Positions 15,522 through 32,211 of a DNA stretch of 64,000 bases are shown piece after piece (the first letter of the stretch is position 1; each line of letters opens with the position of its first letter). The notes under the pieces are model-generated. The model ran no database searches and was not told the origin of the DNA. It saw nothing but the letters and a program-made list of their open reading frames with translations. Made by a program: the position numbers and the translations under genes. This DNA is from a virus (taxonomy: Duplodnaviria; Heunggongvirae; Uroviricota; Caudoviricetes): the IMG/VR virus record IMGVR_UViG_3300036768_001066. One strand, 5' to 3'.

Positions 15522-16073
15522 GTGAAATACATCAAGGACATAGGACTGTTTGAGGCCGAACACATTAACTACAAGAAAATCGACCTCCGTGCCGAATTCG
15601 ACCATATCAATACGCGCCAGTTCGACGGCAAAGTTAAACCGGTGCCGCTGAGGTGGATGAACTCGAAGAACACCGTAGGGCTCATGAGCTACGACGGGCA
15701 GAATATCCGAGACATAGGCATATCGTACTACTACAAGATGTCACTCCAGGAGCTCAGGAACGTTCTCGCGCACGAGATGATACACGCATACCTTGAGCAA
15801 ACGGGGGTGAGGGAGCGGGACGCGCACGGCCCGAGATTCATGAGGATGAGGGAGGAACTGAACAAAAAATTCCCAGAATACAACATAGTCAAGTCGGAGA
15901 ACGCCGAGGAGTTCGAGGTTTCGAGCTATGCGAGGATAAAGGAATACGGGGTCGTCATATTTGACGAAATCGAGGCTATCAGTCTCGTAGTCGTGCCGGT
16001 AGACCTGATAACCGATAATAACCTGGCGGACTTTATTGTGTGGCTAAAAAAAATACGGTCTGCATATTTTTAG
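15522..16073 (+). CDS. SprT-like zinc metalloprotease; carries the shared N-terminal leader (GTG start, VKYIKDIGLFEAEH)
   Basis: HEMIHAY ... HGPRFMRMREEL is the SprT-like HExxH plus downstream His motif. N-terminus matches the leader family. DNA at the start (aaatacatcaaggacata) is 17/18 identical to the start of 22489..22923. Confidence 0.65.
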   Translation: MKYIKDIGLFEAEHINYKKIDLRAEFDHINTRQFDGKVKPVPLRWMNSKNTVGLMSYDGQNIRDIGISYYYKMSLQELRNVLAHEMIHAYLEQTGVRERDAHGPRFMRMREELNKKFPEYNIVKSENAEEFEVSSYARIKEYGVVIFDEIEAISLVVVPVDLITDNNLADFIVWLKKIRSAYF

Positions 16074-19981: not shown

Positions 19982-21131
19982 ATGCAGTGTATATCGAAGA
20001 ACCCTGAACATGTGGCGGAGCTGCGAGAACTGACCCGGTTTCTCGACGAGATGTATGCACCAGCAGAAAATATTTCCATACAACAGCGGTTCTACCACGT
20101 GTGGTTTTCCAGCTATGAGATTGAGGTTTGTCCATATTGTTCGGCCCCGCGAGAGTTTTCAAAGATGAGAAAATTCTCCATCGATCGGTATGGCATCAAG
20201 CCAACAAATGCAGTTAACTATTACGCTACATGTACTGCTATAGAATGCAAGAAGAAGTATAACTTAGATAAGACGCAGGAAGCAGTGAAAGCTAAGTATG
20301 GAGTCGACAATTATTTTGAGACCAAAGAATGCAAAGAAAAGGTCATAGCGACAAACCGCGAGCGGTACGGTTGTGATCACCAGACGCAATCTCAGAACTT
20401 CAAGGATAAAGTCAAAGTTAACTTATATCAAAAAGTACGGAGTCGAGCACCACACGCAATCCGACCAGTCAAAGAAGAGGAAGATCGATACGGTCCGTGC
20501 CAAGTACGGTGTAGACCATGTGCTACAAAACAAGTCCGTAATGAAGAAGTTACAAAATACAAACAAGGAGAGGTACGGAGGCGCGTCATCGATGTGTTCG
20601 GATGTGGTGAAAGAAAAGGCTCGCAACACAAACAGGTCAAAGCACGGTGCAGACTGGTACACACAGTCCAAGGATTTCAGGGCCAAGTTCAGGGAGACGA
20701 TGGTGGAGCGGTATGGCGTAGAGCACATCATGCAGCACGCTCCGTCGTTTGATGCTAACAAGTCAGCACAGTTCAAGAAGAAATTATACATGTTCCCGTC
20801 TGGTAGGCTCGAGAAGATCCAAGGGTACGAAGGGTTTGCTATCAACGACCTGCTTAACATGGGGTATGTGGAGGACGACATAGTGGTGTCGAACGCAGAG
20901 ATAGAGAAGCACACGGGGCGCATCTGGTATGTCGATTCTGTAGGAATTAAACGCAAGTACTACCCCGATATTTATATAATATCTGAGAATAGAATAGTGG
21001 AGGTTAAGTGCGACTATACATTAAAAACAAACCTTCCATTGAACTTATTAAAAAAACAAGCAGCAGAAGCACTTGGTATTAAGTTCGAGTTTTGGATATA
21101 TAACGGTAAGGGTGTTAAAACTATAAAGTAG
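19982..21131 (+). CDS. putative nuclease: N-terminal CxxC zinc ribbon, tandem about 30-aa (K/R)YGV(D/E)H..Q repeats, C-terminal PD-(D/E)xK-like motif; interrupted by a +1 frameshift near 20400-20420
   Basis: Frame A (19982..20752) reads CPYCSAP..., KAKYGVDNY..., RERYGCDHQTQSQNFKDKVK, then junk. Frame B (20373..21131) resumes the repeat in phase: LTYIKKYGVEHHTQS...RAKYGVDHV...KERYGG...VERYGVEH... C-terminal ...YYPDIYIISENRIVEVKCD fits a PD...E.K nuclease core. Confidence 0.5.
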
Positions 21132-21186: not shown

Positions 21187-21480
21187 ATGAAACATCTAAA
21201 ACTATACGAAAGTTTCAATGAGAAACCAATCATGGTGTTCGATCGTACTCTGTACAGAGAACCGACTGAAGAGGAGCTTAGCGCGTTTGAGGACCATCCG
21301 AGTATTTCCAAGGAGGATGTCCTGAGCAATTTTCATTACATCTCGGTAGGCAAGGGCATATTCACCAAGGACAAGAAGGACCAGATAGTATCATGGATAG
21401 GCAAGCTCTGCAGACTATACCCCGACAATAATACGTACAAGGAGGCATTGGAACTTGCAAAGACAGAAACTACAAGATAA
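21187..21480 (+). CDS. small protein with the shared N-terminal leader (MKHLKLYESFNEK)
   Basis: ATG at 21187 in frame with track ORF 21169..21480. Confidence 0.55.
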   Translation: MKHLKLYESFNEKPIMVFDRTLYREPTEEELSAFEDHPSISKEDVLSNFHYISVGKGIFTKDKKDQIVSWIGKLCRLYPDNNTYKEALELAKTETTR

Positions 21481-22112
21481 TGGGGGGATATGCGATACAA
21501 GGTGTTAGAAAGATAACTGGTGACGAGGCACGCCAGACACTCTCTCCATTAAAGAGGTTCCTCGATCACTCGAAGGTCGAGACGGTCATGCTAATAGGAT
21601 CAGCGTGGCACCGGGAGGAGGGACTGTCCGGCGACCTGGATCTTGGTGTGAGAGTCGATCCGAAGCAGGACTTTACATGGGTCATGAGCGCCAAGCTTGG
21701 CAAGACCGTCCAGGGCAAGGCGATGCCGGGAATATCAGTGTACAGCTTCGGATTCCCGATATGTGGCAAGGCGATCAACGGGATGGTGCAGGTAGACCTC
21801 ATACCGGTGTACTACCCAGAATGGTCCAAATTCGTGTACGCGAAGGTGACCGGCAAGGCGAAGAGCGCACACAGGAACTGGTTGCTGTGTGCGCTCGCCA
21901 AGAGCAGGGGCGTCAAGTTCGACCTCAACAAGGGCGCAATGAAGGCGGAGAGCGTATGGTCGTCGTCGGTTGAGATAACGTCGGATCCCGACGAGTTCCT
22001 CAAGTGGCTCGGGATAACCAGGGCGGATGCGGACAGCTACGAGACCCTTTCTCAGGTAGTCCCGCAAGAGGTGCTGTATGAAGCCAACGAGAAATTGGCC
22101 GCGGTCAAGTGA
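21480..22112 (+). CDS. nucleotidyltransferase-fold protein (Pol-beta superfamily minimal NTase)
   Basis: IGSAWHREEGLSGDLDLGVRV matches hG[GS]-x9-13-D-h-[DE]-h. Start overlaps the upstream stop (TAATG). Confidence 0.5.
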   Translation: MGGYAIQGVRKITGDEARQTLSPLKRFLDHSKVETVMLIGSAWHREEGLSGDLDLGVRVDPKQDFTWVMSAKLGKTVQGKAMPGISVYSFGFPICGKAINGMVQVDLIPVYYPEWSKFVYAKVTGKAKSAHRNWLLCALAKSRGVKFDLNKGAMKAESVWSSSVEITSDPDEFLKWLGITRADADSYETLSQVVPQEVLYEANEKLAAVK

Positions 22113-22121
22113 TATATAAAG
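22111..22121 (+). promoter_or_regulatory. GATATATAAAG motif instance
   Basis: 18 nt upstream of ATG 22139. Confidence 0.4.
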
Positions 22122-22138
22122 AAACCAACCGAAAATAA

Positions 22139-22489
22139 ATGGAAAAGAAAGAATTCGACAGACTCCGTTTCGTCACACAGATGAACGAGATGATGCACAT
22201 CATCAAGACCAATCCGCTCAAGTCGCAACAGGATGCAGCCAGGATTGCGCTCCAGGCGATACAGGAGCAGTACAAGGAGAGGTTCGGCGAGTACTCGCAG
22301 AACCACATTGTTGCCGAAGGAATTGTGAAGGACGATGCTCCGGAGCTCGATGCCATAGTGGAAGAAATTGGCAAGATCGTGGAGACCGAGATAAACTCGA
22401 GGGTCGGCAAGGTCGGCAAGAGCGAGGTTAAGTACAAGGCGCAGTACGTCCTCGAAGAATTGATAAAGCTACTGCAGGCATCGGTCTAA
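22139..22489 (+). CDS. hypothetical protein
   Basis: 116-aa ORF. Confidence 0.5.
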   Translation: MEKKEFDRLRFVTQMNEMMHIIKTNPLKSQQDAARIALQAIQEQYKERFGEYSQNHIVAEGIVKDDAPELDAIVEEIGKIVETEINSRVGKVGKSEVKYKAQYVLEELIKLLQASV

Positions 22490-22923
22490 TGAAGTACATC
22501 AAGGACATAAACGAATCGATACAGCTCAATGGGAGCGGACCCACCAATATTACCGTGGCCGTTCGCAGACGTTCTCCGCAGAATCCACTCGGGCTGAATA
22601 ATTATTATATGATGTCCGGGCAGTTGGAACCGATACGAGACGACTACTACCAGACAGTGAGGGACGCTTGTTTCAACATTGGTATGGACTTCTTGTCAAT
22701 ATCTGAGAAGAACTTCACCATGCTCGACAGGCTAAAGGAGGTCATCGACAAGGTTGTCAACGAGAGGCAGGACGAGTTCGACCTGATAGTCTTCAACTGC
22801 AAGAACAGGAACTTCAGGACGCAGTATTGCGCCGAGACCGTGTTCCACACTATAGTTCAGGGCAGGTTAAATGCGCTCGCAGAGAGGCCGTTTGCAATGG
22901 GTGGACTCCAGCCACAACAATAA
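22489..22923 (+). CDS. hypothetical protein with the leader-like N-terminus (MKYIKDINESIQ)
   Basis: Start overlaps the previous stop (TAATG). First 8 codons are nearly identical at DNA level to the SprT-like gene start. Confidence 0.55.
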   Translation: MKYIKDINESIQLNGSGPTNITVAVRRRSPQNPLGLNNYYMMSGQLEPIRDDYYQTVRDACFNIGMDFLSISEKNFTMLDRLKEVIDKVVNERQDEFDLIVFNCKNRNFRTQYCAETVFHTIVQGRLNALAERPFAMGGLQPQQ

Positions 22924-23043
22924 ATGAGACACATCAAGATATTGGACCAAGGCTGTTAACCGAATCCGAACATGATGGCATAAAATATCATGTGGATAAG
23001 GGCGACGGTGTGCTAAACGTACGCATTTGGAAATCCAAATAAC

Positions 23044-23496
23044 TTACTGGTTATGCTTATTTAAGCGGTTCATCTCTCTATCCGCCTCGCGGTTCTTTAT
23101 CGTCTCGCGCTTGTCGTGGAGCTTCTTGCCCTTGGCAACGGCTATACCGAGCTTGCAGATTCCCCTCTGGTTGAGGTACATCGACTTCACCACCACGGTA
23201 GTGCCCTTTATGAGCTTGCCGGCAATCCTCTTTATTTCGGTCTTGTTCAGCAGTAACTTCCTAACTCTCAATGGGTCGTGGTTGTCCGCGGCATCCTGGA
23301 GCGGGTCCACCCGCATCCCCTTGATGAACACCTCGCCCCCGTCTATGTAGGCGTACGCCTCGTTTATGCTCGCGTGGCCCTGGCGTATAGACTTGATTTC
23401 CGTGCCCACCAGCATGATGCCGGCCTCGTACTCCTCTATGAATTCGTACTCGAACTTCGCCTTGCGGTTCTCGAATCGTATGTTGTTGTCTGCCAT
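23044..23496 (-). CDS. smpB: SsrA-binding protein SmpB
   Basis: Full-length alignment by eye to bacterial SmpB (FENRKAKFEYEFIEEYEAGIMLVGTEIKSIRQGHASINEAYAYI...). The C-terminal tail KKLHDKRETIKNREADREMNRL is the canonical SmpB tail. It is a lone minus-strand gene in a plus-strand block. Confidence 0.88.
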   Translation of the reverse strand: MADNNIRFENRKAKFEYEFIEEYEAGIMLVGTEIKSIRQGHASINEAYAYIDGGEVFIKGMRVDPLQDAADNHDPLRVRKLLLNKTEIKRIAGKLIKGTTVVVKSMYLNQRGICKLGIAVAKGKKLHDKRETIKNREADREMNRLNKHNQ

Positions 23497-23524
23497 AATT
23501 GGTACGAAGATAATAAAAATCTGT

Positions 23525-23538
23525 GATATATAAAAAAA
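23525..23538 (+). promoter_or_regulatory. GATATATAAAAAAAC motif instance
   Basis: 15 nt upstream of ATG 23553. The palindromic ATATATA core may also serve the divergent smpB. Confidence 0.4.
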
Positions 23539-23552
23539 CTACTTCCGACAGG

Positions 23553-23870
23553 ATGAAAAGACTTAAGACATTCGAGAGCTTCATCGTGGAGAACTTCGCC
23601 GATCCATACCCGGAAAAGACGGGCGGATCAGGCAACACGTACTATCTGTATATGTTCGACAGCAGCACCGAGGGGTTCTCCGGCGAGGTCAGGGACGGCG
23701 ACGGCAAGTGTGTGTTCACGATAACACCCAAGATACTCGAGGACGGCGGAATGTCCACACCCGACGACGTCACCGGACTCAGGAAGTACCTGATAGAGAA
23801 GAAAAAGAAGCTGTCGGAGACGGACGTTATCGAGATAGCGCAATCAGCCCCGGTACAAACAACCGACTAA
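23553..23870 (+). CDS. small protein with the shared N-terminal leader (MKRLKTFESFIVEN)
   Basis: ATG at 23553 in frame with track ORF 23523..23870. Confidence 0.55.
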   Translation: MKRLKTFESFIVENFADPYPEKTGGSGNTYYLYMFDSSTEGFSGEVRDGDGKCVFTITPKILEDGGMSTPDDVTGLRKYLIEKKKKLSETDVIEIAQSAPVQTTD

Positions 23871-23873
23871 ATA

Positions 23874-24296
23874 ATGGACAAGATGAACAAAAAGGTTATG
23901 AGATTCAACGAGTGGCTCGACGAGAACGAACTCGTCGACCAGGGCCTCGCGGGCGCGGGCGGCGAACAAACGCAGACGGCCGAAATCCCGGGTGCCGAAG
24001 CCGTAGCTGCTGCAGCACCGCGGGAGGAAATACCAGGTGGACTCGCATCGGGCAAGACCGCTGCCGACGTGGCGTCAAAGCACAACGTCTCTGTGGAGGA
24101 GGTAAACGTCCAGCTCGAAAGGGGCAAGAAGGTTGAGCTCGAGCACACAGACGACGAGAAGGTCGCGTGCGAGATAGCGCTCGACCACCTGATGGAAGAT
24201 CCTAAGTACTACGACAAGCTCGCGGCCATCGAGGATGAGCCAAAGGAACCAGCTGACGAGATCAAGGGCAAGAAAGCCGAAAATACAGAGGAGTAA
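23874..24296 (+). CDS. acidic hypothetical protein (C-terminal ...EHTDDEKVACEIALDHLMEDPKYY)
   Basis: 140-aa ORF. Possible internal start at MRFNEWLDENE, which has a weak resemblance to the leader. Confidence 0.5.
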   Translation: MDKMNKKVMRFNEWLDENELVDQGLAGAGGEQTQTAEIPGAEAVAAAAPREEIPGGLASGKTAADVASKHNVSVEEVNVQLERGKKVELEHTDDEKVACEIALDHLMEDPKYYDKLAAIEDEPKEPADEIKGKKAENTEE

Positions 24297-24472
24297 CATT
24301 ATTACATGGATTATCTAAAGGCATATAACAATCTTATCGAGACTCGGGAGAACAGAATTCTTATGGATGATGTTTACTATGAGTCTCACCATATTGTTAT
24401 GCGCTCAATGAGTGGCTCAGATGATCAAGATAACTTAGTTGCTCGAAAGTGGAAAAATAATATATCAGTATA

Positions 24473-24835
24473 ATGAGGGATCTTTACATGAGGGATCCTG
24501 CCACGGATCCGAATTACAAAGAAGGCATCCTCGAAATAAGTGACGAAATGGAGGCCTTGATCGCGGAAATTAAAATGATGTTGTATACCAACCGCGGTGA
24601 GGTGCTCGGCGCGCCTGACTTTGGCGCCAACCTCGAGGAGATGCTCTTCACCTTCGGTCTGAACGAGTACTCGCTGAGGCAAATGCTGAGGGACCAGACA
24701 CTCAAGTTCATACCGAGGTCCGTAAACTACAGCGTCGACTTCGACGTAAAGTTCGCAAGGGGCACGGTCAGGGACATGTGCCTGATAGACATATACATAA
24801 ACAACAGGCCGGCGTTCGGCGTGCTGATAAAATAA
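24473..24835 (+). CDS. baseplate wedge protein, gp25 / GPW-like
   Basis: MMLYTNRGEVLGAPDFGANLEEMLFTF matches the gp25/GPW core (i..iL.T..GER...P.FG..l..llF). Size 120 aa is typical. Confidence 0.6.
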   Translation: MRDLYMRDPATDPNYKEGILEISDEMEALIAEIKMMLYTNRGEVLGAPDFGANLEEMLFTFGLNEYSLRQMLRDQTLKFIPRSVNYSVDFDVKFARGTVRDMCLIDIYINNRPAFGVLIK

Positions 24836-24856
24836 TCCAGCGCAACTTACAAATAA

Positions 24857-25792
24857 ATGAAGAAACTGAAGGACATATCAGAATTCGGGGGGCCTGGTGA
24901 GACCGCGCTCGACGCTGCTTTGAAAGCACCGAACGGCAAGAAGTCCTCCCTGCCCGCGAATTTGCACGCGATGGTCCGTACGCCGGAGTTCAAGACCTGG
25001 TTCGGTGACTGGGAGAACGACCCGGAGAACTCGAGCAAGGTTGTGGACAAGAACGGCGAGCCCATGGTCGTGTACCACGGAACTCCGTCATTTGGATTCA
25101 AGGAGTTCATGAATGACTACAAGATGGCAAGGGCGACTGACAACGAGACGAACGACCTCGGCATCTGGTTCACGAACGACCTGCGCGTGGCAAAGGAATT
25201 CATGTTCAATTCGTCTAAGGGTGGCATCTACGAGGTGTTCCTAAACATGAGGAACCCCAAGGTATTCAAGCCGGCTCTGTTCAACCAATCAGAGATAGAC
25301 GCACTGGAGCAGACAATACACGACTTGAACGTGGACAAGGTCTCACTCGGCTGGTCAGTCAACGATATGACGCCAGACAAGCGCGAGAAGTTCTACAAGA
25401 TAGAGAGGCAGATGAAGGACCTGCACGACCAGATCAGGCTGCTGAAGCACACGGATTCATTCGAGCAGTTCATGAACTACAGGGACAAATACACAGAATA
25501 CATAAACGGTCAGAAGGGGAAGCCTGGCGCATGGCTCGAGAGGTACATCAACACTAACAAGAAGGAGGCAAACCTTAAGCTATTGAAGGAGCTGACCGAC
25601 AGCCAGCACGACGGTTTTGCCATAGTAGATACCCGGTACGACGCACCGAGTAAGAACTCCAGGGTGAGCCAGTACTGCGTATTCGACTCGAAGAACATAA
25701 AGAGCGTCGACAACAACGGCAGGTTCGACCCGGGGACGAGTAATATATACGAGGGAATTCACATAAAAAGCATAGACAGCTTCGATATATAA
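24857..25792 (+). CDS. ADP-ribosyltransferase-fold protein, H-Y-E (PARP/Tpt1-KptA-like) type, paralog A; carries the leader (MKKLKDISEFGG)
   Basis: VVYHGTPSFGFKEF (H-G-T motif, compare KptA LYHGT and PARP HGS) followed by DLGIWFTNDLRVAKEF (compare PARP GKGIYFAD) and a GGIYEVF candidate catalytic Glu. Shares this core with 31351..32211 and 35536..36165. Confidence 0.5.
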   Translation: MKKLKDISEFGGPGETALDAALKAPNGKKSSLPANLHAMVRTPEFKTWFGDWENDPENSSKVVDKNGEPMVVYHGTPSFGFKEFMNDYKMARATDNETNDLGIWFTNDLRVAKEFMFNSSKGGIYEVFLNMRNPKVFKPALFNQSEIDALEQTIHDLNVDKVSLGWSVNDMTPDKREKFYKIERQMKDLHDQIRLLKHTDSFEQFMNYRDKYTEYINGQKGKPGAWLERYINTNKKEANLKLLKELTDSQHDGFAIVDTRYDAPSKNSRVSQYCVFDSKNIKSVDNNGRFDPGTSNIYEGIHIKSIDSFDI

Positions 25793-25812
25793 ATCAAACA
25801 AACCCGTTCAAT

Positions 25813-26313
25813 ATGGATAACAACAACGTAAAAAAGAGAAAGACCATGTCCTTCGAGGAGTTCCTCAAGAACAAGGTAAAGATTGAGAAGGGCGACCAGG
25901 TTGTGGACGATCACTACTCAAACACGCTTGACGAGCCTAAGAAGATAAAGATCGTCAAGGAAAGCAAAGGCTGGAAGGAAGTGGCCGGACCTAACGTTGG
26001 CTCATTTTACAAGACCCAGGAAGAGCTCAACCAGTACAAGACCAAGATGATCGGTGAGGGATACGAGATGGACCTCGACGTTGGTGACATCGCGGAGGAG
26101 CACGCTAAGGCAATCATAGCCGAGGCGTTCGAGATGTCAAAGGCCAGCGACAGGGATGGGGGAATAAATGGAACGATATTGCAGGAGGCGTTCGACAAGA
26201 TCTGCACCGACAACGGCATCGATGACATGGAGGACGATCGTCGCGAGATGATAGTTGATGCAATCCAGTCCATCCTCAAAGAACTATCAGGACAAGCAAC
26301 AAGGCTCAAGTAA
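25813..26313 (+). CDS. acidic hypothetical protein
   Basis: 166-aa ORF. Possible internal start MSFEEFLKNK, a weak leader resemblance. Confidence 0.5.
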   Translation: MDNNNVKKRKTMSFEEFLKNKVKIEKGDQVVDDHYSNTLDEPKKIKIVKESKGWKEVAGPNVGSFYKTQEELNQYKTKMIGEGYEMDLDVGDIAEEHAKAIIAEAFEMSKASDRDGGINGTILQEAFDKICTDNGIDDMEDDRREMIVDAIQSILKELSGQATRLK

Positions 26314-26685
26314 ATGCGCAAGATCAAGGACATATCCGATTTCGAACTGAACGAGTCGCTTATATCCAGGTTCATCACTGTCGATCCGCAGGACATCAAG
26401 TTCGTGGAAGATGCTAAGGTGGCAGACTTTGGGGACAAGGATACGCCGGTCAGGAAGGCCATACTCAATGCTGCGTATTCGCTTTACTCGCACTTCGACA
26501 AGGAGCGCGATAAGTCTAAGTTCATCCAGAAGGTGCTCGGCATGGACCAGGAGGGCAAGGGGAAGGTTCTGAACTCTACCAAAGCGTACGTCGCGAGCCT
26601 CAAGAAGATCCAGAAGATCGAGACCGACGAGATAAGCCCGAACCAGGAGGGACTCGACGCGGTCCTCGAACAAAAACCAGAATAA
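26314..26685 (+). CDS. small protein with the shared N-terminal leader (MRKIKDISDFELNE)
   Basis: Start overlaps the previous stop (TAAATG). Confidence 0.55.
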   Translation: MRKIKDISDFELNESLISRFITVDPQDIKFVEDAKVADFGDKDTPVRKAILNAAYSLYSHFDKERDKSKFIQKVLGMDQEGKGKVLNSTKAYVASLKKIQKIETDEISPNQEGLDAVLEQKPE

Positions 26686-26815
26686 CAATGAAACACACCT
26701 GAGGGGCATAGTCGCGGCAGCAAAGGCCGTGGTAGATTACGTGGAAGCCAAGAAGGGCGAGTACACAAAAAACGACACCGCAGATAGCCGCTAAATAAGA
26801 GTAAATTTTGAAGTT

Positions 26816-26850
26816 AAAAAGCCCGCCCATTTAAACGGCGGGCTTTTTTA
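26816..26850 (+). terminator. rho-independent terminator (gcccgcc-catttaaac-ggcgggc plus T6)
   Basis: GC-rich 7-bp stem with flanking A and T runs; may act in both directions. Confidence 0.75.
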
Positions 26851-26855
26851 TTAGT

Positions 26856-26865
26856 GATATATAAG
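26856..26865 (+). promoter_or_regulatory. GATATATAAG motif instance
   Basis: Directly after the terminator, 20 nt upstream of ATG 26886. Confidence 0.45.
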
Positions 26866-26885
26866 AAAATAGAACCGCATTTAGG

Positions 26886-28616
26886 ATGGCAGAGCAACCA
26901 AGCATATTCAAGAAGAACCGACTCGCGATAGAACTGCTCATCGAGGACTCGATAAACTTCACCGTCGACAAGTTCCGCCAGAGCAGGACCAACTTCACGG
27001 TAGCATCCGCTTATGGCCAGATAATCTTTGTCCTGCACAACCTGGCGCAGATGATACTGTACTACATTGAGGACTCCATAACCGAGCTAAACATTAACAC
27101 GGCTACCAGGGCCAACTCGGTCACCGGTCTTGCGCGTCTCGCCGGGCACAACTCTACGAGGGCGATCTCTGCCGTCGGCGAGATCGGTCTCTCGATAAAG
27201 GCCGGGGCGGACATAGACATACCGGGGGGCACCGTCATACTGCCGAACTGGACCAAGATAAAGTGTGTGAACAACGGCCAGACATACATGCTCGACCTAC
27301 CTGGCGACGAGGTGCGCATACCTCTGGACGGGTCGAAGAACGGCACGCCAGTGAACATAATCCAGGGCCTGCTCGAATCGCAGAGCACTACCGGTACGGG
27401 CAAGCCATTACAGTCGTTCTCTCCCAACTTCAACCAGACAGTGCTCGTTGAACACTATCGTGTCAACGTGTACGTCAACGGGGAGAAGTGGAAGCTGTAC
27501 GACTCAATGTACGACATGCCGCGCGAGGCTAAAGGATGCCTTGTCAAGACTGGCATAAATTCCGGTATAGACGTTATATTCGGCAACGGTCACTTCGGCA
27601 AGATGCCTGAGCTCGGCGCCGAGATACTCGTCGAGTACGTGGTGTCATCCGGTCTCAACGGTAACCTCGTGCTCGCCACAGACGAGGAGGCCGTGTACAA
27701 GTGGGACGACGTAGGGTACAATCTGTACGGTGAGGAGCTCGACCTAAACGAACTTCTGACAGTCAGGAGTATCAACGCACCGGACTTTGGGTCCAACCCG
27801 GAGCTGCTCGAGCTCACCAGGCTCATAGCGCCGAAGACTTCCAGGTCGTACACGCTCGCTAACGAGGACCACTGCATCGTGTTCCTCGAGAAGTTCAACC
27901 AGTTCTCCATCATAGACGCGTACACCACGCCGAATGATGCGGACCTGACCGACGACAAGATAATCTACCTGTTCCTCGTGCCAGACGTCAAGAAGAAGCT
28001 GAAGTCTAACGAGAACTACTTCAACATAGACGAGTCGAGGTTCACACTCAACGACTTCCAGAAGGAGAAGGTGCTGACGTTGTTTGAGAGATCCGGGCAG
28101 AAGATAGTGAGCACCGAGCTGCAGATAGTGGACCCCAAGATAAGCAGGTTCGTCATAAACATAGCGCTGATAGTTTTTGACGACATCCCGCAGGATATAA
28201 TAAAGCAGGACGTCATAGAGAAGCTGAGCGACTACTTCTTGAACATCAGGCGAAGGGACCGTATCCCGCGCTCCGACCTCATCTCAATATTGGAGAACAT
28301 ACCGGGGATAGACTCGGTCAACATCTCGATAGTGTCAGAGATAGACGAGCGCCAGTATCAGCTTTCGCTGACGTCGGGAAGGAGCTCGACCGCCAACTTG
28401 GAGCCGCCTCGCATTGACGAGTTCGGCGACATACTCATACAGCCGGGCGAGCTCGCCATAGTGCGCGGAGGATGGACCGACAGGAGAGGCATAACATACG
28501 AGAAGGACGTAGACGACGAGGTACCGAGCTCGGTTAACATCGTCATCAAGAAGGTCATACCGAAGACGTACAACACGGGGGTAAACCAGAACACCAAATC
28601 TAATCTTAGAGGATAA
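26886..28616 (+). CDS. baseplate J-like (gp6/gpJ family) protein
   Basis: 576 aa. N-terminal ...FTVDKFRQSRTNFTVASAYGQ and C-terminal ...RRDRIPRSDLISILENIPGIDSVNISIV resemble conserved ends of the Baseplate_J family. Lies next to the gp25-like gene. Confidence 0.5.
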   Translation: MAEQPSIFKKNRLAIELLIEDSINFTVDKFRQSRTNFTVASAYGQIIFVLHNLAQMILYYIEDSITELNINTATRANSVTGLARLAGHNSTRAISAVGEIGLSIKAGADIDIPGGTVILPNWTKIKCVNNGQTYMLDLPGDEVRIPLDGSKNGTPVNIIQGLLESQSTTGTGKPLQSFSPNFNQTVLVEHYRVNVYVNGEKWKLYDSMYDMPREAKGCLVKTGINSGIDVIFGNGHFGKMPELGAEILVEYVVSSGLNGNLVLATDEEAVYKWDDVGYNLYGEELDLNELLTVRSINAPDFGSNPELLELTRLIAPKTSRSYTLANEDHCIVFLEKFNQFSIIDAYTTPNDADLTDDKIIYLFLVPDVKKKLKSNENYFNIDESRFTLNDFQKEKVLTLFERSGQKIVSTELQIVDPKISRFVINIALIVFDDIPQDIIKQDVIEKLSDYFLNIRRRDRIPRSDLISILENIPGIDSVNISIVSEIDERQYQLSLTSGRSSTANLEPPRIDEFGDILIQPGELAIVRGGWTDRRGITYEKDVDDEVPSSVNIVIKKVIPKTYNTGVNQNTKSNLRG

Positions 28617-29167
28617 TGAGATTTCTAAAGACATACGCCGGGCTCTTTGAGAGCGAGAATAGTGAGAAGAAGCTCGCGTGCGCGCTCGTATCATTCGACG
28701 TGCCACTTCTCAAGACGCTGCACTCTGCCATAGACAAGGAGGACCTCGACGAGAAAGGATTCGAGGATGAGCCGCACGTAACGCTGCTGTTCGGCCTTCA
28801 CCAGGACGAGGTCACGGCGGAACAAGCCTTCGCGTGCATGCGCAATTGCATGGGCGAGGACGGCTGCGGCGACATAACGCTCGGGCCCGTTTCAGTATTC
28901 TCCAACGACAAGTTCGACGTGCTAAAGTTCGATGCCATCGGGGATTGGCTGCATGCCACTAACAGAGAGCTGAAGGAACTGCCACACACAAACGAGTATC
29001 CAGACTACAAACCTCACTGCACGCTCGCATACCTGAAGCCAGGGCTCGGGCAGAAGTACGTTGCGCTTTTTAACGGTCTATTGTACAAAGTGAAGCCGAA
29101 AGAGTTTATATACTCAGACGCCGACAGGAACCAAACAAAAATGCCGATAGTACAAAATGCCGCTTAA
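28616..29167 (+). CDS. 2H phosphoesterase (LigT / 2'-5' RNA ligase / cyclic phosphodiesterase-like); carries the leader (MRFLKTYAGLFESEN)
   Basis: Two H-x-T-x motifs at the expected spacing: PHVTLLFG and PHCTLAYL. Confidence 0.65.
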   Translation: MRFLKTYAGLFESENSEKKLACALVSFDVPLLKTLHSAIDKEDLDEKGFEDEPHVTLLFGLHQDEVTAEQAFACMRNCMGEDGCGDITLGPVSVFSNDKFDVLKFDAIGDWLHATNRELKELPHTNEYPDYKPHCTLAYLKPGLGQKYVALFNGLLYKVKPKEFIYSDADRNQTKMPIVQNAA

Positions 29168-29402
29168 GCAAAGTTTATACGACATAGCGGAGAGCAGGAA
29201 GCGCCGCGTTCTACACAAGGGATTCAACTACAAGGGCAGGCTCTTCGAGAGGACTATGTCCAAATTCCTGTTCGCAGAGGAGAAGCGAACACAGATACTC
29301 ACGTACCTCGAAGACGTGGTATACGAGCTGATCGAGCGCGTGAAGACCATAAAGAACCACGCCAACTACATAGTACCCAAGAACTACCGCGACAAGAACT
29401 AA
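29157..29402 (+). CDS. small hypothetical protein
   Basis: 81-aa ORF overlapping its neighbours by a few nt. Confidence 0.4.
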   Translation: MPLKQSLYDIAESRKRRVLHKGFNYKGRLFERTMSKFLFAEEKRTQILTYLEDVVYELIERVKTIKNHANYIVPKNYRDKN

Positions 29403-30256
29403 TGAGGCACCTCACCGCATACAATCTGTTCGAGATGAACGCCAATCCATACATGTGGAAGTGGACGACCATCCCTGCTACCACCAATAGGGTCGCGACG
29501 TTCAATTCGGATGACGACAGATACTTCGTCGAGTTCATGTCGAGCGGGTACGACAACACGTACAAGGTGACGTTCGAGTCCGATAAGTACGGAGTCAACG
29601 CCACCGGGTTCGGTAATGCCGACAACGCTATGAGAGTGCTCGCAACGGTTCTCGATATTGTTATTGCGTTTCTCGATGAGAATGCGGAGTACGAGGTGGA
29701 GTACGAGGTGGAGTTCATAGGTGTCAAGGACGATGATGACAACGGACCTTCTAAGAGGGACCGCATATACAAGATGATGATAAAGGATTTACCAGACACA
29801 TATAAATGGGAACTGATGGGAGATAAGAAAACAATACACATAAGCAGGCAGCTTGTGTACGAATCGGAGAATAAAAAGTCGGTGGTCACATTCGACTTTG
29901 ATGGTGTGCTCCATACTGGGATCTACCCTGGTACAATACACCCTCTGCCGAGTCCGGAACTGTGGACTCCGAATGACGAGATGATTGACAAGATGCGCGA
30001 GGAGGCAAAGACTCACACGATATACATAGTCACTGCCAGAGATTCTATGCCGAACGGCGGGCCAAACCCATGGGTTAAACAATTCGTAAAAGAGAATAAC
30101 CTCCCAGTGGATGGAATTATATGCACCAATGATAGGCCGAAGAGACCGTTCCTTGAGAAGCTCGGTTCTATAAGACACTATGACGACAACCCATCGATGA
30201 AAGCGGAGATGACGGGATCTGACATAGAGTTCGTGTTCGTAGATACAAATAAATAA
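29402..30256 (+). CDS. HAD-superfamily phosphatase with an N-terminal extra domain; carries the leader (MRHLTAYNLFEMN)
   Basis: C-terminal half has HAD motif I VVTFDFDGVLHTG, later IYIVTARDS and an ICTNDRPKR region. Start overlaps the previous stop (TAATG). Confidence 0.6.
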   Translation: MRHLTAYNLFEMNANPYMWKWTTIPATTNRVATFNSDDDRYFVEFMSSGYDNTYKVTFESDKYGVNATGFGNADNAMRVLATVLDIVIAFLDENAEYEVEYEVEFIGVKDDDDNGPSKRDRIYKMMIKDLPDTYKWELMGDKKTIHISRQLVYESENKKSVVTFDFDGVLHTGIYPGTIHPLPSPELWTPNDEMIDKMREEAKTHTIYIVTARDSMPNGGPNPWVKQFVKENNLPVDGIICTNDRPKRPFLEKLGSIRHYDDNPSMKAEMTGSDIEFVFVDTNK

Positions 30257-30259
30257 ACA

Positions 30260-31354
30260 ATGAGACACCTAATAAACTTCAGACTATTCGAGGCCGAACA
30301 AAAGGACGGCCCAGTTATATTATATCTGCACGGACTTGATTCCAATCCAGGCGATAAGGGGGAATGGCTCGCGTCGCATTTCAGCAATGTGATTATGCCA
30401 CATGTGGATTATAGGAGGGAAGGATCCACCATATTCAACCAAATAATAAATCTTTTAAAAGGTAAGGAAGTATCATTGATAATAGGCAACTCGATGGGCG
30501 GGTTCCTCGCGTTTTGGCTGTGCAGAAAGCTGAACGTTCCAGGCATATTATTCAACCCGGCTTTGCATAAGCAATCGACCGATGTGCAAGTGGACCGAAC
30601 AGCAAGCGCCACCCCGACTATGACTGTTATACTCGGCAAGAAGGATACATGGATAGACCCCAATATTACGAAGAAGTGGCTCGCCGATAATTACAGCGGG
30701 AACACTGAGATAATAATGGACGATCTCGAGCACCGTATTTCTCGCGAAGAATTCCAGAAACACGTGCTGCAGCTCGTTAAGATGGACGAGAAGTCTGGCG
30801 AGATACTCGATCCGAAGAGAAACCAGTGGGTGGAGATAAATCCAAAGGAACACCCGGAACTTTCTAAGGAGTTCTTCGATCTAATATCGACAGCGTACTC
30901 AGAAATAGGTGGTCATGCAAAAATCAAAAAGCCAGAGGACGTCTTTGCCGACAAGGATTGGAACTTCTGGAGCGGAGTCGATATTCATGGAAGCCCCGAC
31001 CTCGATCTAATTGTGTTCGGACAGAAGACAAAATACGGTATAAAATTCTCCGGAGTCGGACACGACGGACAGAAGGACACGAAGAAAGTGTATCTTGAGC
31101 ATAAGGCTAAAGATTTATCTAAGATAGGTTACTACAGTGAGGTGTCCGGCAAGCTCGCGCAGATATTGATAAACAAGTATCACATCAACGTCATCAACGA
31201 CAAGGACGAGATAAAAAAGTTGATGCCAGGTAAAGATATAATGTTCTATGGCAAACATCCTACGGACCCAGATATGCTAGGCGACGGATGGTACGGTCGC
31301 GATATAGGCGGAAAAGAACACATAAAACTAATGGTGGGAAAACCAAAGATATGA
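30260..31354 (+). CDS. alpha/beta-hydrolase (YqiA-like esterase) fused to an unknown C-terminal domain; carries the leader (MRHLINFRLFEAEQ)
   Basis: VILYLHGLDSNPGDKG ... GNSMGGFLAF (GxSxG nucleophile elbow) ... typical of the YqiA/UPF0227 esterase family. Confidence 0.6.
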   Translation: MRHLINFRLFEAEQKDGPVILYLHGLDSNPGDKGEWLASHFSNVIMPHVDYRREGSTIFNQIINLLKGKEVSLIIGNSMGGFLAFWLCRKLNVPGILFNPALHKQSTDVQVDRTASATPTMTVILGKKDTWIDPNITKKWLADNYSGNTEIIMDDLEHRISREEFQKHVLQLVKMDEKSGEILDPKRNQWVEINPKEHPELSKEFFDLISTAYSEIGGHAKIKKPEDVFADKDWNFWSGVDIHGSPDLDLIVFGQKTKYGIKFSGVGHDGQKDTKKVYLEHKAKDLSKIGYYSEVSGKLAQILINKYHINVINDKDEIKKLMPGKDIMFYGKHPTDPDMLGDGWYGRDIGGKEHIKLMVGKPKI

Positions 31355-32211
31355 AGCACATAAAAACTTATAGCTTATTTGAGTCCGAGAATACCGATGG
31401 TTCTGTTTGGTATCATGGTACCGACAGTAAGTTTGACAAGTTTGATATGTCAAAAACTAAGAGCGGCCCATCGGCTTTCGGTATTTGGTTTGCTGATGAT
31501 GCAGAGCTTGCCAAGATGTTCGGAGAGAACATCATGAAATGCAAGCTGACTTACGAGAATCCGAAAGTTATAACTATGGACGAGTGGGACGCAATACGAA
31601 TGGAGCACACCAAGGATACCGAGTTTTTCAAAAATTGGAAGGCCAAGCTAATATCACAGGGATACGACGCGCTGTTCATCAAAGAACGTTTACAGAAGTT
31701 CGACGGTCACACGGTACGCGACGGTAACATGGTTGCAGTGTTCGATCAAGATGATGCAGAGATAATGAACGAGAATGTCAACGAGAATTTTACGAAGGCC
31801 GGACTCGGGAGCATGATACTAATGACCGGGGAGAAACAACCGGATGGGACGACCAGGCTCTACGCGATACCGATACAGAGAGTATTATCATACGGTAGGA
31901 AAAAAGCAGACAATACCGATGCACAGGATGCCAACATGGTTCTGCTTGGCGATGATTATTATAGGCTGACAATACAAGACGGTAAGATCAAGCCACAAAA
32001 GGTCGGGTTCAGTAGCAAGCCGAATATGCTCAAAGCGCTCGGAATGAGTGAGAAGAATCTATCCGGCGAACGGTTGAAAATCGTGCTGAACTCTAAGACG
32101 GGCAAGACACCTTTACACTGGCGTGCGCTCACTTACAGTTCCATGGGCAAGATGCTGTCAGAAATGGGCAAGGAAATAATGGAACTACCGAACATAAAGT
32201 GGTATAATTAA
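31351..32211 (+). CDS. ADP-ribosyltransferase-fold protein (H-Y-E / Tpt1-KptA-like), paralog B; carries the leader (MKHIKTYSLFESEN)
   Basis: SVWYHGTDSKFDKFD ... FGIWFADDAELAKMF ... LTYENPKV parallels paralog A. ATG at 31351 overlaps the upstream stop (ATGA). Confidence 0.5.
   Translation: MKHIKTYSLFESENTDGSVWYHGTDSKFDKFDMSKTKSGPSAFGIWFADDAELAKMFGENIMKCKLTYENPKVITMDEWDAIRMEHTKDTEFFKNWKAKLISQGYDALFIKERLQKFDGHTVRDGNMVAVFDQDDAEIMNENVNENFTKAGLGSMILMTGEKQPDGTTRLYAIPIQRVLSYGRKKADNTDAQDANMVLLGDDYYRLTIQDGKIKPQKVGFSSKPNMLKALGMSEKNLSGERLKIVLNSKTGKTPLHWRALTYSSMGKMLSEMGKEIMELPNIKWYN

What the first reader, a model, noticed from the sequence alone, without database searches (positions are those of the whole stretch)
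21187..32211. About ten unrelated enzymes share one N-terminal leader that resembles a T4-type capsid-targeting sequence
At least ten ORFs begin with essentially the same 12-14 residues, although their bodies are unrelated. They are SprT-like 15522 (VKYIKDIGLFEAEH), 21187 (MKHLKLYESFNEK), 22489 (MKYIKDINESIQ), 23553 (MKRLKTFESFIVEN), ART-A 24857 (MKKLKDISEFGG), 26314 (MRKIKDISDFELNE), 2H phosphoesterase 28616 (MRFLKTYAGLFESEN), HAD 29402 (MRHLTAYNLFEMN), esterase 30260 (MRHLINFRLFEAEQ) and ART-B 31351 (MKHIKTYSLFESEN). Weaker matches occur at 23898 and 25846. The consensus is M-[KR]-x-[LI]-[KT]-x-[YIF]-x-[LS]-F-E-[SA]-E-N. The similarity is at protein level; the DNA differs except for 17/18 identity between the starts of 15522 and 22489. 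Most of these genes are translationally coupled (TAATG or ATGA overlaps) and are interleaved with baseplate genes (gp25-like 24473, J-like 26886). In phage T4 the internal proteins IPI-III carry a roughly 10-aa N-terminal capsid-targeting sequence of very similar style (MKTYQEFIAE, cleaved after Glu by the prohead protease), and the packaged, injected Alt protein is an ADP-ribosyltransferase. The simplest reading is that this phage packages a whole toolkit of enzymes into the capsid through a shared cleavable leader ending ...FE[SA]E-N and injects them with the DNA. I do not recognise this motif or this gene set as described.
Basis: partly seen in the sequence, partly recalled or inferred. Interest (0 to 1): 0.92.

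Follow-up and report, generated by a model that had tools for sequence, protein, structure and literature searches.

The report
T4-type capsid-targeting leader, huge phage
About a dozen unrelated enzymes and small proteins of this huge phage start with one short peptide that matches phage T4's capsid-targeting sequence at its functional residues, so it probably marks proteins that are loaded into the head and injected with the DNA.

Summary
Ten ORFs, plus two short-form variants at 23898 and 25846, begin with M-[KR]-x-[LI]-K-x-[YFI]-x-x-F-..-E. Their bodies are unrelated. The conservation is at protein level, and there is no hydrophobic signal.

The window comes from a huge (>200 kb) phage with a T4-like core. 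Its relative LR756500 (462 kb) has 29 genes starting MK[YF]IxxYxxF[LIV]xE. A profile trained only on those ranks the window's leaders first. The same leader heads more than 100 ORFs in IMG/VR viral contigs; in bacterial genomes the same DNA pattern gives mostly out-of-frame chance hits.

T4's sequence MKTYQEFIAE fits the leader's last eight positions better than any internal 8-mer of LR756500. The residues that direct targeting and processing in T4 (Y4, F7, I8, E10) are the leader's most conserved positions. Relatives encode a gp20 portal, an S77 (gp21) prohead protease and a gp23 capsid protein, with leader genes inside that module. The cargo domains (ART-PolyVal, SprT-like, 2H) occur elsewhere in packaged polyvalent proteins.

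I conclude this is a T4-type capsid-targeting sequence in a new lineage, used on an unusually large scale. Packaging, cleavage and injection remain untested, and the window phage's own head module was not seen.

The parts
15522..16073 (+). Leader-tagged SprT-like zinc metallopeptidase (VKYIKDIGLFEAEH, GTG start)
   Evidence: Pfam SprT-like 7.9e-15; the domain starts at residue 24. Leader ranks 4th of 1892 candidate starts with the LR-trained profile. LFE at residues 9-11.
21187..21480 (+). Leader-tagged 97-aa protein of unknown function (MKHLKLYESFNEK); start uncertain
   Evidence: Ranks 3rd with the LR-trained profile. The independent caller chose ATG 21232 instead. No Pfam or PHROG hit.
22489..22923 (+). 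Leader-tagged 144-aa protein of unknown function (MKYIKDINESIQ); weakest full-length leader, with no Phe at position 10
   Evidence: rank 5. TAATG overlap with the upstream gene.
23553..23870 (+). Leader-tagged 105-aa protein of unknown function (MKRLKTFESFIVE|N), the most T4-like leader in the window
   Evidence: Rank 2 of 1892. F-x-x-F-I-x-E matches T4 Y-x-x-F-I-x-E. The gene caller starts it here.
23898..24296 (+). DUF5661 protein with a short-form leader (MRFNEWLDE|NE); the ORF opens at 23874
   Evidence: Pfam DUF5661 4.3e-15. F-N-E-W-L-D-E parallels T4 Y-Q-E-F-I-A-E. DUF5661 is fused to ART-PolyVal in homologues.
24857..25792 (+). Leader-tagged ADP-ribosyltransferase A (ART-PolyVal), MKKLKDISEFGGPGE
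   Evidence: Pfam PF18760 1.9e-19. In the AF2 model residues 1-20 have pLDDT 45-50 and the fold starts near residue 21. Homologues carry interchangeable N-terminal modules ahead of the conserved LLAPNGK motif.
25846..26313 (+). Unknown protein with a short-form leader (MSFEEFLKN); the ORF opens at 25813
   Evidence: Second-best N-terminal match (8.3 bits) to positions 7-13 of the LR-trained leader profile among the window's genes. It lacks the final Glu.
26314..26685 (+). Leader-tagged 123-aa protein of unknown function (MRKIKDISDFELNE|S)
   Evidence: rank 7. LNE at residues 12-14.
28616..29167 (+). Leader-tagged 2H phosphoesterase (LigT/Acb1-like), MRFLKTYAGLFESE|N
   Evidence: Pfam 2_5_RNA_ligase2 27.7 bits (cut-off 27), Acb1 26.1 bits. 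phrog_755. Two HxT motifs are visible in the sequence. 1-nt overlap with the baseplate wedge gene.
29402..30256 (+). Leader-tagged two-domain protein with a HAD/PNK-3'-phosphatase-like C-terminus (MRHLTAYNLFEMN)
   Evidence: phrog_415 and phrog_1238 hits at residues 150-266. FDFDGVLH motif in the sequence. LR756500 has a leader-tagged PNK3P protein at the syntenic island.
30260..31354 (+). Leader-tagged alpha/beta hydrolase (UPF0227/YqiA-like) plus a C-terminal domain that elsewhere stands alone behind its own leader (MRHLINFRLFEAE|Q)
   Evidence: Pfam UPF0227 7.2e-12; profile position 2 aligns to residue 20. 17 IMG/VR ORFs match it, e.g. L042 MKKIKLYEQFIEE.
31351..32211 (+). Leader-tagged ADP-ribosyltransferase B (ART-PolyVal) plus a C-terminal domain, MKHIKTYSLFESE|N
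   Evidence: Pfam PF18760 2.4e-10 from residue 19. Rank 1 of 1892 with the LR-trained profile. ATGA overlap with 30260.
24473..24835 (+). Context: gp25-like baseplate/sheath-initiator gene that bounds the first cargo island
   Evidence: 42% identical to LR756500 311184-311534. Weak Pfam Sheath_initiator hit.
26886..28616 (+). Context: baseplate wedge subunit (T4 gp6/J-like) between the two cargo islands
   Evidence: phrog_219 7e-23. 40% identical to LR756500 and 38% to the Lak phages. An identical protein sits on two contigs of 0.2-1 Mb.
20373..21131 (+). Context: DUF7487 gene, the conserved left border of the cargo island
   Evidence: Pfam DUF7487 3.9e-51. Syntenic with LR756500 318071-318811.

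Best explanation
The shared N-terminus is a T4-type capsid-targeting sequence (CTS). The window belongs to a huge (>200 kb) phage of the Lak/LR7565xx kind, whose virion core is T4-like.

Proposed mechanism. The tagged proteins are made together with the structural genes. Their flexible 13-14-residue leader, with an aromatic or aliphatic residue at position 7 and Phe at position 10 as the key contacts, binds the scaffolding core of the assembling prohead. The gp21-family (S77) prohead protease then probably removes the leader after a Glu, either L-F-E| or E-[SA]-E|. The mature enzymes stay in the head and enter the host with the DNA. There they act before any phage gene is expressed. The cargo includes ADP-ribosyltransferases, a SprT-like protease, a 2H phosphoesterase, a HAD/PNK-like phosphatase, an esterase and several small unknown proteins.

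Shown here: the leader exists. It is selected at protein level and is a detachable N-terminal module. It is conserved across distant relatives and is virus-specific. It matches the T4 CTS at the functionally mapped residues. The clade has the T4 head-assembly genes.

Inferred: binding to the scaffold, cleavage, presence in virions, injection, and the targets of the enzymes.
For: Leader exists at gene starts and is selected as protein. Bodies are unrelated and there is no hydrophobic signal. Pfam domains begin at residues 19-24 in four of the tagged proteins, directly after leader plus linker. In the AF2 model of ART-A, residues 1-20 have pLDDT 45-50 ahead of a confident domain.

Among ART-PolyVal homologues the conserved core LLAPNGK is preceded by nothing, by this leader, by a T4-length leader (MKFEEFLLESE), or by a TM helix.

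Relative LR756500: 29 of 653 genes start MK[YF]IxxYxxF[LIV]xE. Their bodies include 6 LRR proteins, a metallopeptidase-VWA protein, an R2K ATP-grasp, a GNAT and a PNK phosphatase. A profile trained only on these ranks five of the window's leader starts in places 1-5 of 1892 candidate starts.

IMG/VR: 118 of 136 pattern matches sit at ORF starts, and the positions left free by the pattern are conserved (E8, E/Q/D9, N12, A/S/G14). In bacterial genomes only 16 of 121 matches do so.

T4 CTS: 14.0 bits, exceeded by 0 of 120,062 internal 8-mers. T4 targeting residues 4 and 7 and processing residues 8 and 10 correspond to leader positions Y7, F10, [LIV]11 and E13 (PMC9026906). [LIV]xE occurs in 11 of 12 window leaders against 10 of 51 other genes, p=6e-6. 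In LR756500 it occurs at positions 11-13 in 19 of 29 leaders against 17 of 624 other proteins.

T4-type head module in the clade: portal, Peptidase_S77, Gp23, gp2, gp15. A gp32 homologue lies just beyond the window on the same contig. Leader genes lie between portal and protease (L116) or directly after the capsid gene (L021, L078, L265).

The ART-PolyVal domain occurs in crAss-like RNAP-associated polyvalent proteins and in DarB-like proteins. Such proteins are described as likely to be packaged and injected (PMC5512222).

The cargo island lies at the same syntenic place in the window and in LR756500 but holds non-orthologous cargo. This parallels the diversity of T-even internal proteins, which share only the CTS (PMC3012670).
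Against: There are no virion proteomics or N-terminal sequence data for any phage carrying this leader. The window phage's own portal, protease and capsid genes were not recovered, so their presence is inferred from relatives that are only 30-40% identical in structural proteins.

The window's leaders are more degenerate than those of LR756500. Glu at position 13 is present in only about half, and three (22489, 24857, 25846) lack a convincing T4-like processing site.

In the window and in LR756500 the largest leader clusters lie in the baseplate module, not the head module.

Internal [LIV]NE[AGS] sites are not enriched in leader proteins. Foldseek gave no significant structural match for ART-A.

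In Tenacibaculum phage PTm1, one virion-annotated gene carries no leader, and the two genes with leader-like starts are annotated only as hypothetical proteins.
Confidence: 0.7

Rival explanations
1. The leader loads cargo into the tail (tube lumen or baseplate) rather than the head. This would be analogous to the N-terminal packing signals of extracellular contractile injection systems such as PVC and Afp.
For: In the window and in LR756500 the densest leader clusters are interleaved with gp25-like and gp6/J-like baseplate genes and are closely spaced with them, some with overlapping stop and start codons.
Against: The leader matches the T4 head CTS at the residues mapped for head targeting. 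Leader genes also sit inside the portal-protease-capsid module. In T4 the head-packaged Alt gene also lies next to baseplate and tail-tube genes 48 and 54, so gene position is not diagnostic. From my own knowledge, eCIS signals are about 50 residues long, disordered, and lack such a consensus.
Confidence: 0.08
2. The leader is a shared N-terminal module with a function other than virion packaging. Possibilities are docking to a common intracellular partner or chaperone, a tag for timed proteolysis, or a peptide or mRNA feature that favours translation initiation in a Shine-Dalgarno-poor Bacteroidota host.
For: MK-rich, A-rich starts are common in Bacteroidota genes (my knowledge). Leader codons are somewhat AT-richer than the 50% GC genome (GC 0.29-0.50). 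There is no direct evidence of packaging.
Against: Only about 4-5% of genes in LR756500 carry it. The conserved positions are Y7, F10, [LIV]11 and E13 rather than the first codons, and synonymous codons vary freely. The pattern is nearly absent from ORF starts in bacterial genomes. The match to the T4 CTS and the location in the head module would be unexplained.
Confidence: 0.15
3. The similarity is trivial: chance, a repeated DNA element fused in frame, or the start of one paralogous domain.
For: 15522 and 22489 share 19 of their first 21 nt. ART-A and ART-B are paralogues.
Against: About 0.05 regex matches are expected among roughly 70 gene starts (my estimate from rough residue frequencies), against 10-12 observed. 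Mean nucleotide identity is 46%, and half of the identical residues use different codons. Bodies are unrelated. A profile from an independent genome retrieves the same starts.
Confidence: 0.01

Closest known systems
Capsid targeting sequence (CTS) of phage T4 internal proteins IPI, IPII and IPIII (MKTYQEFIAE|A); compare the propeptides of Alt, gp67 and gp68
   Same: A short N-terminal peptide is shared by otherwise unrelated proteins. The pattern is M-K ... Y-x-E/x-F-[ILV]-x-E followed by a small residue. The experimentally mapped targeting residues (Y4, F7) and processing residues (I8, E10) are the most conserved leader positions. The clade encodes a gp21-family protease, a gp20 portal and a gp23 capsid protein. 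The cargo loci are hypervariable. An ADP-ribosyltransferase is among the cargo, as with Alt.
   Different: The leader is three residues longer (MK + x-I-K/L-x + Y..F..E). It tags about 12 genes in this 64-kb window and 29 genes (about 4-5% of genes) in LR756500, against a handful in T4. The cargo is mostly enzymes and LRR proteins rather than small basic proteins. The lineage is a deep-branching huge-phage clade, with T4 similarities of only 1e-8 to 1e-33. The window's version often has Glu rather than Ile/Leu at position 11. Nothing has been shown experimentally.
Propeptides of ejection and inner-body proteins of giant phiKZ-like phages (phiKZ, 201phi2-1, SPN3US), cleaved by an S80 prohead protease
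   Same: Giant phages package many proteins into the head. N-terminal propeptides are removed after Glu by a gp21-related protease (PMC5694885 and PMC10052503, listed).
   Different: From my own knowledge, those propeptides are long, are not one shared short peptide, and have the cleavage motif S/A/G-x-E. Here the protease scores better as S77 than as S80 (42.6 against 27.4 bits), and the tag is a single consensus peptide.
Polyvalent proteins of phages and conjugative elements (Iyer et al. 2017, PMC5512222)
   Same: The domain repertoire overlaps: ART-PolyVal, zincin/SprT-like peptidase, GNAT, NTase, phosphoesterases. The inferred role is the same: effectors delivered with the DNA to act in the first minutes of infection.
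   Different: Polyvalent proteins join 2-15 domains in one polypeptide. Here the domains are separate one- or two-domain proteins, each carrying its own targeting leader.
Phage P1 Dar antirestriction system (DarA/Hdf-dependent packaging of DarB, Ulx, DdrA/B)
   Same: Anti-defence enzymes are packaged into the head during morphogenesis and injected (PMC9024508 and PMC12810830, listed). ART-A's domain occurs in DarB-like proteins.
   Different: As far as I know, P1 packaging depends on dedicated adaptor proteins and an ordered hierarchy, not on a shared cleavable 10-14-residue peptide.
Cargo-loading peptides of encapsulins and N-terminal packing signals of eCIS/PVC payloads
   Same: Short terminal peptides direct unrelated cargo into an HK97-fold shell or a contractile injection device (my knowledge).
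   Different: Encapsulin peptides are usually C-terminal and bind the shell. eCIS signals are long and have no consensus. No sequence similarity was seen or tested.

Membership tests
T4-type capsid targeting sequence (CTS) | A short N-terminal peptide shared by otherwise unrelated proteins of one phage | tested here: met
   12 window genes and 29 LR756500 genes carry it. Bodies are unrelated by BLASTP and Pfam.
T4-type capsid targeting sequence (CTS) | Sequence resemblance to MKTYQEFIAE, including the targeting residues (Y4, F7) | tested here: met
   T4 YQEFIAEA scores 14.0 bits on leader positions 7-14, and 0 of 120,062 internal 8-mers reach that. Y7 is found in 28 of 29 and F10 in 27 of 29 LR756500 leaders. 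In the window, position 7 is Y/F/I (or the equivalent position in the short forms) and F or W follows three (in 28616 four) residues later in 11 of 12 leaders. The mapped T4 residues are from PMC9026906.
T4-type capsid targeting sequence (CTS) | The peptide ends in a gp21 cleavage site, (L/I)-x-E followed by a small residue | tested here: met
   LR756500: [LIV]xE at positions 11-13 in 19 of 29 leaders against 17 of 624 other proteins. Window: [LIV]xE within 14 residues in 11 of 12 leaders against 10 of 51 other genes. IMG/VR: position 14 is A, S or G in about half of the leaders (52-56%). This is sequence evidence only. The exact site in the window's variant is ambiguous (LFE| or E[SA]E|).
T4-type capsid targeting sequence (CTS) | The phage encodes a gp21-family prohead protease and a scaffolding core | tested here: inconclusive
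   Met in relatives. LR756500 226725-228623 is Peptidase_S77 (42.6 bits, cut-off 27) fused to a long C-terminal region that may be scaffold, and it lies between the T4-like portal and the Gp23 capsid gene. The same holds in L021, L078, L116, L265 and L267. The head module of the window's own genome was not retrievable.
T4-type capsid targeting sequence (CTS) | The peptide is necessary and sufficient for encapsidation, and the cargo is ejected into the host | not testable with these tools
   This needs virion proteomics and leader-reporter fusions.
Polyvalent proteins (Iyer et al. 2017) | 2-15 effector domains in a single polypeptide | tested here: not met
   The window proteins are 97-364 aa with one or two domains. 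They share domains (PF18760 ART-PolyVal) with polyvalent proteins but not the architecture.
ADP-ribosyltransferase (ART-PolyVal, PF18760), for 24857 and 31351 | Significant match to the family profile above the curated cut-off | tested here: met
   71.3 and 41.8 bits against a cut-off of 31.2. 281 homologues were found, and the 120 listed are all annotated PF18760. A fold search against the PDB gave no significant hit. Catalytic residues were not examined.
Sec/Tat/lipoprotein signal peptide | A hydrophobic h-region after a basic N-terminus | tested here: not met
   The maximum 9-residue Kyte-Doolittle mean within the first 20 residues is at most 1.0 for all 12 proteins. The leaders are amphipathic and neutral to acidic.

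The most novel reading that the evidence does not exclude
The leader may be a general, portable loading code of a large, mostly uncultivated T4-related radiation. It could let huge phages pre-load dozens of enzymes and LRR binders (about 5% of the proteome) into the virion, in effect a split polyvalent arsenal. An even less expected possibility is that part of this cargo, encoded within the baseplate module, is loaded into the tail or baseplate rather than the head. That would make the phage tail an effector injector comparable to eCIS or T6SS.
Probability: 0.12. Interest if true: 0.85.

Novelty: new member of a known kind. Interest (0 to 1): 0.62.

Why it matters
If the leader works as in T4, a 13-residue motif predicts from sequence alone which proteins an uncultivated huge phage carries in its particle and injects. 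That turns hundreds of hypothetical genes in Lak-like and related metagenomic phages into a defined candidate set of first-minute host-takeover and anti-defence effectors. In this data set the set includes ADP-ribosyltransferases, Acb1-like 2H phosphoesterases, SprT-like proteases, NTases, ATP-grasp ligases and LRR binders.

It would also help explain what part of the extra coding capacity and capsid volume of huge phages is used for. It links the 'polyvalent protein' idea to a second architecture, in which many small proteins share one tag. Finally, it offers a natural and apparently tolerant packaging tag for engineering protein delivery by phages of Bacteroidota.

Tried and rejected
1. DNA-level relatives. 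Megablast of 21000-33000 and blastn of an IMG/VR leader locus against GenBank phages gave nothing. An exact 47-mer from the window is absent from IMG/VR.

2. Tenacibaculum phage PTm1, a cultured relative with virion-annotated genes. It has only two leader-like starts (MKLFETINESFEHNE and MKELIKHIQESFDN), neither annotated as virion protein. Its paper is not in the library.

3. Lak-B5 and LR756501. No leader genes lie within 20 kb of their J-like genes. Their whole genomes were not scanned.

4. Internal [LIV]NE[AGS] sites as polyprotein cleavage sites. They are not enriched in leader proteins (0.68 against 0.58 per 1000 aa, p=0.56). Only a few proteins (L045, L128, L132) show repeated ES[VI]NEA linkers.

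5. T4 late promoter TATAAATA. Three hits against 0.9 expected, none upstream of a leader gene.

6. A cleavage site in the LR756500 capsid protein at the position of the T4 gp23 site LTE|A. It is not conserved there. The N-terminal LINE[AS]E motif is suggestive only.

7. Recovering the window phage's own capsid or protease gene through homologues of the LR756500 capsid protein. The best 120 of 3228 hits did not include it, and two look-ups landed in other samples.

8. Foldseek of the ART-A model against the PDB gave no significant match.

9. Full-text searches for the leader strings, and for 'capsid targeting' together with huge, jumbo, mega or Lak phages, found no description.

Full report
**Observation.** A regex for the first seven residues, applied to every start codon in all six frames, finds 12 sites on the + strand. 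These are the ten listed, 36970, and an internal site in a 1810-aa gene. On the - strand it finds only two short junk ORFs. From rough residue frequencies I estimate about 0.05 matches would be expected among roughly 70 real gene starts. An independent gene caller on the public contig that contains most of the window starts eight of the ten genes at the leader Met. The start of 15522 lies outside the locus it covered, and for 21187 it prefers an internal ATG, so that start is uncertain. The two weaker matches are short-form leaders: 23898 MRFNEWLDE and 25846 MSFEEFLKN.

**Trivial explanations fail.** Mean nucleotide identity over the first 14 codons is 46%. At positions where two leaders share an amino acid, 84 of 165 codon pairs differ. 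This indicates selection on the peptide, not a repeated DNA element. With the first 16 residues removed, the twelve bodies show no BLASTP similarity except ART-A and ART-B at E=0.04. None has a hydrophobic stretch that could serve as a secretion signal. Pfam domains begin right after the leader: UPF0227 profile position 2 at residue 20, ART-PolyVal at residue 19, SprT-like at residue 24. An AlphaFold2 model of ART-A (pLDDT 84) has residues 1-20 at pLDDT 45-50, ahead of a confident domain.

**What the phage is.** The baseplate wedge protein (26886-28616; phrog_219) is 40% identical to that of the uncultured 462-kb phage LR756500. It is 38% identical to the Prevotella Lak megaphages. More distant matches are the 634-735-kb phages of the LR7565xx/LR745206 series and jumbo phages of Tenacibaculum and Flavobacterium. 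An identical copy of this protein lies on two public contigs of 0.2-1 Mb, so the window's phage is itself huge. A T4 gp32 homologue lies just beyond the right end of the window. The window is syntenic with LR756500 295-325 kb at 30-40% amino-acid identity.

**The leader is a lineage-wide, virus-specific tag.**
- I assembled LR756500 from ten fetched pieces and called 653 genes. Twenty-nine of them begin MK[YF]I-x-x-Y-x-x-F-[LIV]-x-E, in about ten clusters.
- Their bodies include six LRR proteins, a DUF2201 metallopeptidase-VWA protein, an R2K ATP-grasp, a GNAT, a PNK 3'-phosphatase and many unknowns.
- A position matrix trained only on these 29 sequences, applied to all 1892 candidate starts in the window, places 31351, 23553, 21187, 15522 and 22489 in ranks 1-5. 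It places 26314 at rank 7, 24857 at rank 12 and 29402 at rank 22.
Of 136 matches, 118 lie at the start of an ORF of at least 44 aa with no upstream in-frame ATG. Positions left free by the pattern are strongly biased (E8, E/Q/D9, N12, A/S/G14).
- The same pattern in 596 Gb of bacterial and archaeal genomes gave 121 matches, of which only 16 meet that criterion. Most are out-of-frame chance hits.
- Weaker variants occur in LR756502 and LR756504 and in Maribacter phage Molly (M..LKSLVESE).

**Match to the T4 CTS.**
- I read IPII and IPIII from the T4 genome: MKTYQEFIAE|ARVG and MKTYQEFIAE|ASVV.
- 'YQEFIAEA' scores 14.0 bits on positions 7-14 of the LR756500 matrix. None of 120,062 internal 8-mers of the LR756500 proteome reaches this. 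The huge-phage leader therefore looks like MK + three extra residues + the T4 CTS core.
- Mutagenesis reviewed in PMC9026906 places T4 capsid targeting mainly at residues 4 and 7 (Tyr, Phe) and processing at residues 8 and 10 (Ile, Glu).
- These four residues correspond to the four most conserved leader positions after Met-Lys-[YF]-Ile: Y7 (28 of 29), F10 (27 of 29), [LIV]11 (25 of 29) and E13 (20 of 29).
- In the window the aromatic-x-x-Phe pair is kept in 11 of 12 leaders. Glu13 is kept in only about half.
- Eleven of 12 window leaders contain a [LIV]-x-E tripeptide, the gp21 consensus, within 14 residues, against 10 of 51 other genes (p=6e-6). In five of them it is L-F-E at residues 9-11 or 10-12. 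In LR756500, [LIV]xE sits at positions 11-13 in 19 of 29 leaders against 17 of 624 other proteins.
- T4's own gp23 site is LTE|A, and Alt begins MELITELFDE.

**Head-assembly context.**
- LR756500 has a T4 gp20-like portal (3e-33). Next to it is a 632-aa protein whose N-terminal domain is Peptidase_S77, the gp21 family (42.6 bits, cut-off 27). Next comes a capsid protein annotated PF07068 Gp23.
- Related contigs add T4 gp2, gp15, Portal_T4 and gp44-like genes.
- Leader genes lie inside this module in relatives. In L116 one sits between portal and protease, the position of the T4 core genes 67 and 68. In L021, L078 and L265 one follows the capsid gene.
- The post-capsid gene belongs to a conserved coiled-coil family that carries leader variants. 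This family includes LR756500 213395 and 300992.

**Modularity and cargo.**
- Among 120 ART-PolyVal homologues the conserved core starts at LLAPNGKxSNL. Ahead of it there is nothing (MKKELLAPNGK), the window-type leader (MKKLKDISEF, P0001-P0015), a T4-length leader (MKFEEFLLESE), a long leader (MKYLINYTNFKLHE), or a transmembrane helix.
- The C-terminal half of 30260 occurs elsewhere as a separate protein with its own leader.
- In GenBank phages the ART-A domain, from residue 22 on, is embedded in crAss-like RNAP-associated/zincin proteins and in DarB-like antirestriction proteins. Proteins of this kind are described as likely to be packaged and delivered with the DNA (PMC5512222).
- In both the window and LR756500 a cargo island sits between the DUF7487 gene and the gp25-like gene, but its contents are non-orthologous. 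This parallels the T-even internal proteins, which are highly diverse and share only the CTS (PMC3012670).

**Mechanism proposed.** The tagged proteins are co-expressed with structural genes. This is inferred from same-strand, closely spaced or overlapping genes. The flexible leader docks on the scaffolding core of the prohead. The S77 protease trims it after Glu11 or Glu13. Leaders without a good site may be packaged uncleaved, as with the T4 E10D mutant. The mature proteins then leave with the DNA and act before phage transcription starts. The leader itself, its modularity, its conservation, the match to the T4 CTS and the presence of T4 head genes in the clade are shown here. Scaffold binding, cleavage, virion residence and injection are inferred.

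**Rivals.**
- Tail or baseplate loading (0.08) is suggested only by gene position. T4 alt also lies next to genes 48 and 54.
- A non-packaging role such as partner docking, a degron or a translation effect (0.15) does not explain the virus specificity, the conserved positions or the head-module location.
- Chance, a DNA repeat or a paralogous domain (0.01) is excluded.

**Novelty.** The principle is established for T-even phages, and the review cited above already suggests the CTS is an evolutionary device of T4-like phages. I found no paper that mentions the leader strings, or that links 'capsid targeting' with huge, jumbo, Lak or megaphages other than the phiKZ-like SPN3US. The surveys of polyvalent proteins and jumbo phages that I checked by term search gave no hit for such a leader. 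I therefore rate this a new member of a known kind. It is notable for its scale (12 genes in 17 kb here, 29 in LR756500), for its enzyme-rich cargo, and for being a usable sequence predictor of the packaged proteome of uncultivated phages.

**Limits.**
- There are no experimental data for any leader-bearing phage.
- The window phage's own protease and capsid genes were not recovered.
- My gene calls for LR756500 are crude.
- The IMG/VR and genome scans were truncated at 120 stretches.
- The window's leaders are more degenerate than those of LR756500.

Noticed in passing
window 23044-23496 (-): An SmpB (tmRNA-binding protein) gene lies on the opposite strand in the middle of the leader and baseplate gene run (Pfam PF01668 on the source contig). 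ARAGORN found no tmRNA gene in the window.
   Followed up: partly
window 5182-6191 (+): A cluster of six tRNA genes: Asp, Ala, Cys, Glu-TTC, Glu-CTC, and one of undetermined identity whose anticodon ARAGORN reports as four bases (ttgc).
   Followed up: no
homologues P0018, P0049, P0050, P0056, P0059, P0060, P0065, P0075, P0082, P0092, P0093, P0104, P0108, P0109, P0113: About 15 ART-PolyVal homologues carry, in place of the leader, a hydrophobic N-terminal helix (MIPYLIAGAIGF...GG) directly before the conserved LLAPNGK core. This may be a second, different localisation or packaging module for the same effector domain.
   Followed up: no
L045:3950-5473, L128:4868-7363, L132 10588-11745: A few long leader-bearing proteins in IMG/VR contain three to six repeats of an ES[VIK][VN][NT]E[AG] linker that resembles the end of the leader. 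They look like polyproteins with internal protease sites. The motif is not enriched overall.
   Followed up: partly
L078:5020-6174, L265:6507-7049, L267:11852-13012, LR756500 213395-214183 and 300992-302092: A conserved, highly charged coiled-coil protein family carrying leader variants is encoded directly after the Gp23 capsid gene in several relatives. It may be a scaffold or core component.
   Followed up: partly
L141 (Maribacter phage Molly_1, NC_062751 13131-18193): At least five neighbouring genes of this cultured flavobacterial phage begin with a related motif (MNLKTLVETD, MNLKSLVESN, MKPEEIKSLVESEN, MKTTELKSLIESES, MKTGKIKTLIESTK). This could be a cultivable system in which to test the leader idea.
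   Followed up: no
window 60786-61766 (-) and LR756500 254760-255749: R2K-clade ATP-grasp proteins occur in both phages. The LR756500 copy carries the leader; the window copy (MKLKVLFPCN) does not.
   Followed up: no
window 37300-39402 (-): A 700-aa ORF has a Bacteroidota-style signal peptide (MKKSILMLAIGLMAGTINAQ) and a very low coding score relative to the rest of the window (0.04 bits per codon). The composition differs and the gene may have been acquired from the host.
   Followed up: no
LR756500 1214-2419 of locus L002 (record about 328.7-329.9 kb) and 235497-236732: TnpB/IS200-605-like ORFs, judged from their sequence features, lie within the structural region of the relative. Not analysed.
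   Followed up: no
window 6847-7632 (+) and 36970-37248 (+): Two further genes have leader-like starts (MKRRTMLFEQFNTASAFE and MRNIKPYYDLPNM) that score poorly. It is unclear whether they belong to the tagged set.
   Followed up: partly
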